Origin: Escherichia coli
GTDB taxonomy: Bacteria; Pseudomonadota; Gammaproteobacteria; Enterobacterales; Enterobacteriaceae
Strand: one strand, 5' to 3'
Length of the DNA stretch: 64,000 bases
Assembly: GCF_003334385.1 (NCBI RefSeq)
Contig: NZ_QOWN01000001.1
Shown here: positions 62,564-63,383 of the stretch, one piece after another
Layout of the letters: each line of letters starts with the position of its first letter
Position numbering within the stretch: position 1 is the first letter of the stretch
The notes under the pieces: model-generated
Told to the model about the DNA's origin: nothing
Database searches by the model: none
The model's input: only the letters and a program-made list of their open reading frames with translations
Program-made: the position numbers and the translations under genes

Positions 62564-63084
62564 TCATTCATCGATGCACTTTATAGAATCATCAATGGCC
62601 ATAATAGTACTATTAACTCTCAATTTTATATTTTTATCATCACTACAAATATTAACTGAATTTATATCAATGATTTTTTTATTCTTATCTTTTATTTTAT
62701 TTACTGTTTCAATGCAATCAGCGGCAAGTTGGAGTGGATTTAGATTTTTCAGATATGGTCTTATGATCTTTCCCTTACTTAATAAATAGCATGTATAGGA
62801 TTCGGAAAGTCCAGCATCTATTTTGTACCTCATTATATTAGATAAGGATGTGAGAAATTCCTTGTTATCATTCGCAGCCATATATGCCAGTCCGAGTTCA
62901 GCCTCTGCGGCCTTACAGGCAAAATAGCTTAGTGAACACGCTTTTCGTCCCTCTTTAGTACTGGCTGATATTAGTGCCCATAATATTGCTTTGTCTGCCA
63001 AATCTAACTCTCTCTGAAATTGTCTTGCAGTAACTGCACTCGCAGAAATAGAGAAAAAAATACAATTGTTAATAACCTTGCCAT
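62564..63084 (-). pseudogene. Frameshifted gene for a probable secreted protein: ATG at 63082-63084 encodes a signal-peptide-like N-terminus that leaves frame at the T7 run (plus-strand A7, 63054-63060); the body continues in the adjacent frame to the stop at 62564
   Basis: Hand translation: ATG frame gives MARLLTIVFFSLFLRVQLLQDNFRES-stop; body frame gives ...CIFFSISASAVTARQFQRELDLADKAILWAL... with no ATG near its 5' end; one extra T would fuse them into MARLLTIVFFFSISASAVTA|RQF... Confidence 0.55.
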
Positions 63085-63089
63085 ATTTT

Positions 63090-63383
63090 TTAGTCCGTAA
63101 CTGTTAATGTGCTATCTGGCTCTGAAAATATTAACTCATTTAATTTTTGCATGTCATTAGATAAACCAGTTATACAACCCTCGGAACAGAATCGAGGTCC
63201 TAAAGACGGACCAAAAGCGTTTAAACAACTATGTATTGAAAATCCATTGCGATTATAAGTTCCTGTATTAACTGACGGTACTAATCGTATGCCGTCAGGT
63301 TTTCTATTGCTTGCTCCCGGGTCATTAACATTCCAACTCCATAGGCCTTGAGGTATTGGCCATCTATTTATAAATGTGTACAA
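63090..63383 (-). CDS. Hypothetical 97-aa ORF without an ATG start (TTG at 63381-63383, preceded immediately by an in-frame stop); possibly a gene fragment
   Basis: ORF track entry; AT-rich context; no recognisable domain from sequence alone. Confidence 0.25.
   Translation of the reverse strand: MYTFINRWPIPQGLWSWNVNDPGASNRKPDGIRLVPSVNTGTYNRNGFSIHSCLNAFGPSLGPRFCSEGCITGLSNDMQKLNELIFSEPDSTLTVTD

What the first reader, a model, noticed from the sequence alone, without database searches (positions are those of the whole stretch)
62564..63104. Secreted-protein gene apparently inactivated by a frameshift at an A7/T7 homopolymer tract
On the minus strand an ATG at 63082-63084 opens a frame encoding MARLLTIVFF..., which looks like a Sec signal peptide, but that frame stops after 26 codons. 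The adjacent frame carries the rest of the signal peptide (SISASAVTA, then RQF) and about 170 further codons down to 62564, yet has no ATG near its 5' end. The two frames meet exactly at a run of seven T (plus-strand A7 at 63054-63060); a run of eight would give one intact ORF. This is either a decaying pseudogene or a slippage-prone (phase-variable) locus.
Basis: seen in the sequence. Interest (0 to 1): 0.55.

Follow-up and report, generated by a model that had tools for sequence, protein, structure and literature searches.

The report
Frameshifted orphan Rhs immunity gene (Imm57)
This is the leftover immunity gene of a dead Rhs toxin cassette in E. coli, broken by loss of one T in a run of T's; it is an ordinary pseudogene that RefSeq already annotates, although about 1% of strains carry the intact eight-T version.

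Summary
On the minus strand, an ATG at 63084-63082 opens a 26-codon frame. A T7 run lies at 63060-63054, and the -1 frame stays open down to 62564.

The gene is an Imm57-family immunity protein (PF15596, E 1.9e-47). It has a Sec-type signal peptide and six conserved cysteines. It sits directly after a degenerate orphan Rhs C-terminal toxin of the Tlde1 / L,D-peptidase type, at the yibH end of the rhsA locus. RefSeq already marks exactly 62564-63084 as "Imm57 family immunity protein, frameshifted". In K-12 this is the yibV region.

Among 5,426 complete E. coli genomes, 3,363 carry this allele:
- about 3,200 have T7;
- 38 have T8;
- at most 20 have T6;
- none has T9.

Sixteen of the 20 T8 copies I inspected are intact 173-codon ORFs. 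They lie on about 11 local haplotypes. A diverged allele in 316 genomes is in frame as C+T7 and sits next to an intact toxin.

About 1,000 T7-lineage genomes carry a second frameshift (A8), and others carry IS insertions. Clonal groups are uniform in tract length.

Verdict: a decaying pseudogene at a mildly slippage-prone tract, not a demonstrated phase-variable locus. Low novelty.

The parts
62564..63084 (-). Whole Imm57-family immunity pseudogene, start codon to stop codon (521 nt; the intact form is 522 nt)
   Evidence: PGAP annotates the same span as 'Imm57 family immunity protein, frameshifted' in a strain that is 100% identical over window 62400-63400 (L001 4317-4837 = window 63084-62564). 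Pfam PF15596, E 1.9e-47.
63004..63084 (-). Truncated 26-codon ORF from the true ATG. It encodes the n- and h-regions of the signal peptide (MARLLTIVFF), then out-of-frame residues and a stop.
63054..63060 (-). T7 homopolymer (plus-strand A7), the site of the -1 frameshift. T8 restores the ORF.
   Evidence: Population counts: about 3,207 T7, 38 T8, at most 20 T6, 0 T9.
62564..63053 (-). Rest of the coding sequence in the -1 frame: end of the signal peptide (SISASA|VTARQF), the Imm57 domain, six Cys, and the stop at 62564-62566.
62674..62680 (-). Second homopolymer inside the gene: A7 on the coding strand, in frame here. It is A8 in about 1,000 genomes, including K-12 and EDL933, where it makes a second frameshift and yields the 111-aa yibV-type ORF.
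63090..63623 (-). Degenerate orphan Rhs C-terminal fragment. It keeps the end of the Rhs core and the DPxGL region plus a Tlde1 / L,D-peptidase toxin domain. It is disrupted by an extra C in the C-run at 63527-63530, a 9-bp deletion at 63416/63417, and a 1-nt deletion with a premature TAA at 63368-63370.
   Evidence: Alignment to an intact Rhs-Tlde1 protein and an intact orphan tlde1 gene. Tlde1_dom PF10908, E 3.5e-7, on the intact relative. Weak Tlde1/YkuD hits on the window's 97-aa remnant. The H...SxGC motif is visible in the remnant.

Best explanation
The locus is the immunity gene of an orphan Rhs toxin/immunity cassette, at the distal end of the rhsA locus next to yibH.

In its intact form it encodes a 173-residue Imm57-family protein. 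That protein would be exported by a Sec signal peptide to the periplasm. There it would neutralise the Tlde1-type (L,D-transpeptidase-fold) peptidoglycan-targeting toxin domain carried at the C-terminus of an Rhs protein.

In this window the cassette is dead. The toxin remnant has two frameshifts, a deletion and a premature stop. The immunity gene has lost one T from a T8 run (GTA TTT TTT TTC to GTA TTT TTT TC). This separates the first ten codons of the signal peptide from the rest of the protein.

Likely history (inferred):
1. An ancestral CTT (Leu) codon followed by T's became TTT, making a T8 run.
2. Replication slippage then removed one T.
3. The T7 allele became the majority allele of E. 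coli.

Decay has continued since then, with a second slippage (A7 to A8) in about 30% of carriers and IS insertions in others. The same tract occasionally changes length again, to T6 or T8, so a few lineages carry an intact orphan immunity gene.

Shown here: the sequence anatomy, family membership, allele counts and haplotype backgrounds. Inferred: periplasmic location, immunity function, the direction of mutational steps, and lack of expression.
For: Anatomy.

Family and context:
- Imm57 on the window's own frame, E 1.9e-47, and on the intact homologue, E 3.7e-44.
- The upstream neighbour is a Tlde1-domain toxin fused to a full Rhs core in strain Ec73552. It is annotated 'tlde1 domain-containing protein' beside an intact Imm57 in other strains.
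- Zhang et al. 2012 pair Imm57 with Tox-LD-peptidase and RHS repeats (PMC3482391).
- Tlde1-family toxins are toxic only in the periplasm and have Sec-exported immunity proteins; Rhs-DUF2778 fusions exist in Shigella/E. coli (10.1101/2020.02.18.954545; PMC9638812).
- Signal-peptide features and six conserved Cys are shared with a 55%-identical homologue.

Pseudogene status:
- PGAP flags 'frameshifted'.
- About 3,207 of 3,363 carriers have T7.
- A8, a second frameshift, occurs in about 1,004 genomes.
- IS1/IS3/IS5 insertions occur in the gene.
- The toxin remnant is identical and dead in T7 and T8 strains.

A single lesion in this window: repairing the T run gives a protein identical to the intact annotated ORF of O121 strain RM8352 (WP_000113243.1). 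dN/dS of about 0.35 against the diverged intact allele shows the gene was under constraint for most of its history.
Against: - T8 alleles are not a single relic. They lie on about 11 local haplotypes, and one T8 group is identical over 1.6 kb to more than 25 T7 genomes. The tract has therefore changed length repeatedly, which would also be expected of a switch.
- 16 of 20 T8 copies are fully intact, and none of the 20 sits on the A8 background. That could hint at selection for the ON state. It could equally reflect database over-representation of A8 clones such as K-12 and O157:H7.
- No expression data were available, so low-level rescue of the T7 allele cannot be excluded.
- Some singleton T6/T8 calls may be homopolymer errors. 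Several of the older assemblies carrying them also have neighbouring genes flagged as frameshifted.
Confidence: 0.85

Rival explanations
1. Phase-variable (contingency) locus. The T7/T8 run is an adaptive, reversible ON/OFF switch for an orphan immunity gene, flipped by replication slippage.
For: - Tract lengths T6, T7 and T8 all occur in nature.
- T8 lies on about 11 haplotypes, and T7 and T8 share an identical 1.6-kb haplotype.
- 16 of 20 T8 copies are otherwise intact, and none is on the A8 background.
- Attackers exist: 316 genomes carry an intact related toxin/immunity pair.
Against: - About 95% of carriers are T7.
- Clonal groups are uniform: all 9 genomes with the O121 haplotype are T8, and all six ETEC O6:H16-type genomes inspected share one T8 haplotype.
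- T6, which cannot restore the frame, is about half as common as T8 (at most 20 against 38). The T8 count therefore needs little or no selection to explain it.
- No genome has T9.
- About 30% of carriers have a second frameshift, and some have IS insertions.
- From general knowledge, a 7-8 nt A/T run is short compared with established mononucleotide contingency tracts.
- The cognate toxin remnant is dead in all copies examined.
Confidence: 0.08
2. Recoding. The T7 allele still makes full-length protein, either by -1 ribosomal slippage of tRNA-Phe on U UUU UUU or by RNA-polymerase slippage adding a U. The 'pseudogene' would then be a low-level expressed immunity gene.
For: - Read from the sequence: a -1 P-site slip on the U7 run re-pairs perfectly and would give MARLLTIVFFFSIS..., which is the T8 protein.
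- The downstream frame is otherwise unbroken in this window.
Against: - There is no stable downstream structure. The 91 nt from the tract fold at -11.9 kcal/mol, weaker than 198 of 200 shuffles.
- The frameshift arrangement is not conserved. The diverged allele in 316 genomes and the 55%-identical homologue are plainly in frame.
- About 30% of T7 genomes have a second frameshift that this mechanism could not rescue.
Confidence: 0.04
3. The downstream ORF is itself a functional cytoplasmic protein made from the internal TTG: 145 aa here, and 111 aa (YibV) in K-12.
For: - An ORF of 145 aa starts at a TTG at 63001.
- K-12 has the matching 111-aa ORF, and yibV is listed among the uncharacterised genes of K-12 (PMC11551758).
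Against: - It would lack the signal peptide while keeping six cysteines that are conserved in exported homologues.
- Its length differs between strains only because of a second frameshift.
- PGAP treats the whole span as one frameshifted pseudogene.
Confidence: 0.02
4. Sequencing or assembly error in the window: the real tract is T8.
For: Homopolymers are error-prone, and some T6/T8 singletons in public assemblies may be errors.
Against: The exact 81-mer with T7 occurs in about 3,207 complete genomes from many laboratories and platforms, including K-12 and O157:H7.
Confidence: 0.01

Closest known systems
Imm57 immunity proteins of Tox-LD-peptidase / Tlde1 polymorphic toxins (Zhang et al. 2012, PMC3482391; Pfam PF15596)
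   Same: Full-length Pfam match (model positions 2-100 of 100). The D...SE...C signature is present (IDAGLSESYTC). The gene sits immediately downstream of an Rhs-linked L,D-peptidase toxin domain. It has a Sec signal peptide, as expected for immunity to a periplasm-acting toxin.
   Different: This copy is frameshifted, and its partner toxin is a degenerate orphan fragment. No Imm57 protein has been tested experimentally as far as the searched literature shows: only two papers mention the name.
Tlde1a/Tldi1a effector-immunity pair of the Salmonella SPI-6 T6SS (PMC9638812; 10.1101/2020.02.18.954545)
   Same: The toxin domain belongs to the same Pfam family (PF10908) and has the H...SxGC catalytic signature. 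The logic is the same: a periplasmic toxin neutralised by a Sec-exported immunity protein.
   Different: Tldi1a is a DUF2195 protein, not Imm57. Tlde1a is a stand-alone effector, whereas here the domain is the C-terminal tip of an Rhs protein.
Orphan rhs-CT/rhsI cassettes downstream of main rhs genes (the E. coli K-12 rhsA - yibA - yibJ - yibG - yibV region)
   Same: Same locus and architecture: a main rhs gene followed by displaced C-terminal toxin fragments, each with its immunity gene. K-12 carries the same frameshift.
   Different: Nothing substantive; this is that locus. The window's allele differs from K-12 only in lacking K-12's second frameshift (A8).
Homopolymer-based phase-variable (contingency) genes
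   Same: A mononucleotide run early in the ORF, whose length decides whether the reading frame is intact. Natural length variants exist.
   Different: The tract is short. One length predominates at about 95%. Clones are uniform. Secondary inactivating lesions are accumulating.

Membership tests
Imm57 immunity protein family (PF15596) | Significant full-length match to the family HMM | tested here: met
   Window downstream frame: E 1.9e-47, model 2-100/100. Intact homologue: E 3.7e-44.
Imm57 immunity protein family (PF15596) | Conserved D, SE, C residues (Zhang et al. 2012 table) | tested here: met
   IDAGLSESYTCY in the window frame. RIDAGLSELYTCY in the 55%-identical homologue P0037. Family description.
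Imm57 immunity protein family (PF15596) | Encoded immediately next to a Tox-LD-peptidase (Tlde1) toxin of a polymorphic toxin system | tested here: met
   In the intact relative the toxin stop and the immunity ATG are 4-5 nt apart. The toxin is Tlde1_dom, E 3.5e-7, fused to an Rhs core. PGAP annotates 'tlde1 domain-containing protein' beside Imm57.
Imm57 immunity protein family (PF15596) | Actually protects against the cognate toxin | not testable with these tools
   No experimental data found.
Sec-exported periplasmic protein | N-terminal signal peptide: positive n-region, hydrophobic h-region, small residues at -3/-1 | tested here: met
   Hand-scored, not SignalP. R3; h-region LLTIVFFFSI with mean Kyte-Doolittle 2.8; ASA|V. 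ANA|V in the diverged allele; TLA|E in P0037. Six Cys conserved in the mature part. In the window itself the peptide is split by the frameshift.
Orphan Rhs toxin/immunity cassette | Short remnant of Rhs core plus DPxGL region and a toxin domain, lacking the N-terminal Rhs body, downstream of a main rhs gene and followed by an immunity gene | tested here: met
   Homology to the intact Rhs starts about 63623 and runs to the stop at 63090. In strains sharing this allele, a main RHS core protein and further cassettes lie upstream. The main rhs gene itself lies outside the window.
Phase-variable contingency locus | Repeat tract whose length sets the reading frame | tested here: met
   T7 is out of frame and T8 in frame.
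Phase-variable contingency locus | Frequent tract-length differences among closely related isolates | tested here: not met
   About 3,207 T7, 38 T8, at most 20 T6, 0 T9. All 9 genomes with the O121 haplotype are T8. All six ETEC O6:H16-type genomes inspected are uniform T8. This is a comparison of assemblies only, not of within-culture populations.
Phase-variable contingency locus | Measured high-frequency reversible switching | not testable with these tools
   Needs amplicon deep sequencing or reporter assays.
Programmed -1 frameshift / transcriptional slippage gene | The frameshifted arrangement is conserved among homologues | tested here: not met
   The diverged allele (316 genomes) and P0037 are in frame.
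Programmed -1 frameshift / transcriptional slippage gene | Stimulatory RNA structure downstream of the slippery run | tested here: not met
   MFE -11.9 kcal/mol, z = +1.76 against shuffles.

The most novel reading that the evidence does not exclude
The T-run acts as a slow evolutionary toggle. T7-to-T8 reversions would resurrect the orphan immunity gene and be retained in lineages such as STEC O121:H19 and ETEC O6:H16, which meet competitors armed with the related Rhs-Tlde1 toxin. The 'pseudogene' would then be a reservoir of re-activatable immunity. A weaker version of the same idea: the T7 allele leaks full-length protein through -1 slippage on the U7 run.
Probability: 0.1. Interest if true: 0.4.

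Novelty: already known. Interest (0 to 1): 0.15.

Why it matters
It matters little beyond housekeeping. The gene, its family and its frameshift are already in RefSeq annotation, and the locus is the well-known rhsA orphan-cassette region of E. coli K-12.

This analysis adds three things:
- A functional label for the K-12 yibV-type ORF. It is the signal-peptide-less remnant of a periplasmic Imm57 immunity protein against a Tlde1-type Rhs toxin.
- The mutational path: CTT to TTT creates a T8 run, which then slips to T7.
- A population census showing that about 1% of carriers have an intact T8 copy.

If those T8 copies prove to be selected revertants, the locus would be a small natural example of an orphan immunity gene being resurrected by homopolymer slippage.

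Tried and rejected
- NCBIfam scan of the repaired immunity protein and the intact toxin domain: no family.
- PDB sequence search with the repaired protein: only chance-level hits, E >= 0.15, so no structural inference was attempted.
- Promoter/terminator scan of 62100-63800: 7 promoter-like sites against 7.4 expected, and no terminator-like sites. Uninformative.
- RNA fold downstream of the tract, looking for a frameshift stimulator: none.
- T9 allele search: no genome.
- A test of whether T8 avoids the A8 background: 0 of 20 against about 30% overall. I rejected this as evidence of selection, because the A8 frequency is inflated by heavily sequenced clones (K-12, O157:H7) and the T8 lineages are few.
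- Sequencing error in the window: rejected, because about 3,200 genomes share the exact T7 81-mer.
- The first 'Imm57' paper search failed for lack of a free slot and was repeated successfully.
- The first haplotype alignment was unreadable, because one T8 strain (PS10-3) has a different genomic context. It was redone without that strain.

Full report
**1. The observation**

On the minus strand the sequence reads ...GACTAAAAAAT ATG GCA AGG TTA TTA ACA ATT GTA TTT TTT TCT CTA....
- The ATG is at 63084-63082 and the T7 run at 63060-63054.
- The ATG frame gives MARLLTIVFFSLFLRVQLLQDNFRES and stops after 26 codons.
- The -1 frame is open for 173 codons, from 63085 to the stop at 62564-62566. It reads ...CIFFSISASAVTARQFQRELD...CIDE.
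- The first start codon listed in that frame is a TTG at 63001.

**2. What the gene is**

The downstream frame matches Pfam Imm57 (PF15596) over the whole model at E 1.9e-47.

A megablast of window 62400-63400 against 5,426 complete E. coli genomes finds the region in 3,706 of them, always on the chromosome and always annotated 'Imm57 family immunity protein'.
- In a strain 100% identical over that kilobase, PGAP annotates exactly the finder's span (L001 4317-4837 = window 63084-62564) as 'Imm57 family immunity protein, frameshifted'.
- The flanking genes are yibH, yibI and mtlA on one side, and yibG, Rhs fragments and an RHS core protein on the other.
- K-12 MG1655 has the same arrangement. 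This is the distal end of the rhsA locus.
- The K-12 y-ome paper lists 'yibV (surrounded by pseudogenes)' here (PMC11551758).
- The K-12 copy yields a 111-aa TTG-initiated ORF. From my own knowledge this corresponds to YibV.

**3. The intact form and its partner**

In strain Ec73552 a full-length RHS core protein ends in a toxin domain. It is followed, 4 nt after its stop codon, by an intact 173-codon Imm57 gene.

The toxin tip matches Pfam Tlde1_dom (PF10908) at E 3.5e-7. It carries the L,D-peptidase signature H...SxGC (FLTHS...CSEGCITG).

The window has the same toxin sequence upstream of the immunity gene, at about 63623-63090, but it is wrecked:
- an extra C in the C-run at 63527-63530;
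- a 9-bp deletion at 63416/63417;
- a 1-nt deletion with a premature TAA at 63368-63370.

The 97-aa remnant ORF still gives weak Tlde1/YkuD hits.

The literature fits this picture:
- Zhang et al. 2012 list Imm57 as the immunity partner of Tox-LD-peptidase toxins associated with RHS repeats (PMC3482391).
- The Tlde1 work shows these toxins act only in the periplasm and are countered by Sec-exported immunity proteins. It also notes Rhs-DUF2778 fusions in Shigella/E. coli (10.1101/2020.02.18.954545; PMC9638812).

The repaired N-terminus agrees with export:
- It has one positive charge, a 10-residue hydrophobic core (LLTIVFFFSI) and an ASA|V cleavage motif.
- The diverged allele has ANA|V.
- A 55%-identical metagenomic homologue has MRSTFFIFLLLLFFSTATLA|E.
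- All three share six cysteines at matching positions.

This was a hand-scored check, not SignalP.

The mechanism is therefore as follows. The protein's identity and context are shown; its location and function are inferred. It is a periplasmic immunity protein against an Rhs-delivered peptidoglycan toxin. Here it is part of a displaced 'orphan' cassette in which the toxin is dead.

**4. The lesion**

Aligning the window, K-12 and the intact Ec73552 gene shows ATT GTG CTT TTT TTC TCT in the intact gene, against ATT GTA -TT TTT TTC TCT in the window.

The deep in-frame state is therefore C+T7, not T8. Inserting one T into the window's run gives a 173-aa protein identical to that encoded by the O121 strain RM8352 gene, which PGAP annotates as intact WP_000113243.1.

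The simplest path is an inference: CTT to TTT created a T8 run, and slippage then removed one T.

dN/dS between the window-type and Ec73552-type alleles is about 0.35. The gene was therefore constrained for most of their divergence, and the frameshift is the only lesion in this window.

**5. Population census**

I used allele-specific 80-83-mers against the complete genomes. 3,363 genomes carry the window-type allele.

| Tract | Genomes |
|---|---|
| T7 (exact 81-mer) | about 3,207 |
| T8 (all full-length exact matches) | 38 |
| T6 | at most 20 |
| T9 | 0 |

About 100 more genomes have a SNP in the probe.

The diverged allele occurs in 316 genomes. All 30 sampled rows aligned over exactly 100 bases with no indel. 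It lies next to an intact tlde1 gene or a full Rhs, or in some genomes has no annotated toxin gene directly upstream.

I fetched 20 T8 loci.
- 16 are intact 173-codon ORFs annotated as such.
- 4 have a further indel.

The T8 copies lie on about 11 local haplotypes:
- an O121:H19 group (9 genomes from several laboratories);
- an ETEC O6:H16-type group (six inspected genomes; four more from the same study as E66 also carry T8 but were not fetched);
- a group of 6 around strain SCZE5;
- several singletons.

Five genomes of the SCZE5 group are identical over 1.6 kb to more than 25 T7 genomes apart from the one base. The tract has therefore changed length repeatedly.

**6. Pseudogene or switch?**

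Evidence for plain decay:
- T7 is about 95% of carriers.
- The second in-gene homopolymer (A7 at 62674-62680) is A8, a second frameshift, in about 1,004 genomes including K-12 and EDL933.
- IS1, IS3 and IS5 insertions interrupt the gene in other strains.
- The partner toxin is identically dead in T7 and T8 strains.
- Every genome found with the O121 or O6:H16-type haplotype has T8, so these clonal groups are uniform.
- T6, which cannot restore the frame, is roughly half as common as T8. The T8 frequency is therefore close to what neutral slippage, plus some assembly error, would give.

On assembly error: several of the assemblies carrying T8 singletons also have frameshifts flagged in neighbouring genes.

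Points that keep a switch alive:
- multiple independent T8 lineages exist;
- most T8 copies are fully intact;
- none of the 20 is on the A8 background.

I give little weight to the last point, because the A8 frequency is inflated by heavily sequenced clones.

Recoding (-1 slip on U7, or polymerase stuttering) would give exactly the T8 protein. It has no support, however:
- there is no downstream structure;
- the frameshift is not conserved in homologues;
- about 30% of T7 genomes have a second frameshift that recoding could not rescue.

**7. Comparison with what is known, and novelty**

The gene passes the sequence, motif and context tests for Imm57. The neighbour passes those for a Tlde1-type Rhs toxin tip. 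The architecture is a standard orphan rhs-CT/immunity cassette.

RefSeq already records the frameshift. The locus fails the population test for a contingency locus and both tested criteria for programmed frameshifting.

The finding is therefore real, correctly read and ordinary. I rate it 'already known', interest 0.15.

The only mildly new items are the functional reading of the K-12 yibV remnant, the CTT-to-TTT-to-slippage path, and the roughly 1% of strains with an intact T8 orphan immunity gene.

**8. Other checks**

The region from about 62.2 kb to the window end is 30-41% G+C, against 51-56% in the yibH/mtlA side. This fits a horizontally acquired rhs-associated island.

The NCBIfam, PDB-sequence and promoter/terminator scans added nothing.

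Noticed in passing
window 62674-62680 (- strand A7): A second homopolymer inside the same gene is polymorphic at high frequency. It is A7 (in frame) here and in about 2,300 genomes. It is A8 in about 1,004 genomes, including K-12 and O157:H7 EDL933, where it gives a second frameshift. Both states appear among O157:H7 genomes in the listed rows. One T8 strain has A6.
   Followed up: partly
window 63090-63623 (- strand): Degenerate orphan Rhs C-terminal fragment with a Tlde1 / L,D-peptidase toxin domain. It has an extra C at 63527-63530, a 9-bp deletion at 63416/63417, and a premature TAA at 63368-63370. It is identical in a T8 strain.
   Followed up: yes
other E. coli genomes, same gene: IS1, IS3 and IS5/ISKpn26 elements are inserted in or beside the Imm57 pseudogene in a number of strains (e.g. 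PEC422, TOE3, MB22, CFSAN061761). In some of them the annotation is split into two Imm57 pieces.
   Followed up: no
window about 62200-64000: Low G+C island (30-41%) against 51-56% in the adjacent yibH region, as expected for rhs-associated accessory DNA.
   Followed up: partly
window 63708-63938 (- strand) and beyond the window end: C-terminal part of the sel1-repeat gene yibG, the presumed immunity gene of the preceding orphan cassette. The window ends inside it. yibG is itself split or frameshifted in several strains.
   Followed up: no
L019 (strain PS10-3) and CM196106: The T8 allele sits in a different context here. An ISAs1 transposase, rather than yibH, lies downstream, and there is a second copy of the region elsewhere in the genome (2 places per record).
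   Followed up: no
protein P0043: A 295-aa metagenomic protein (PF13786) whose last 43 residues are identical to the C-terminus of the diverged Imm57 allele. It is probably a chimeric contig or gene call.
   Followed up: no
L010-L013, L017, L020: Several assemblies carrying T8 also have neighbouring genes (the main RHS gene, yibG) flagged as frameshifted. Some homopolymer length calls in public complete genomes may therefore be assembly errors.
   Followed up: partly
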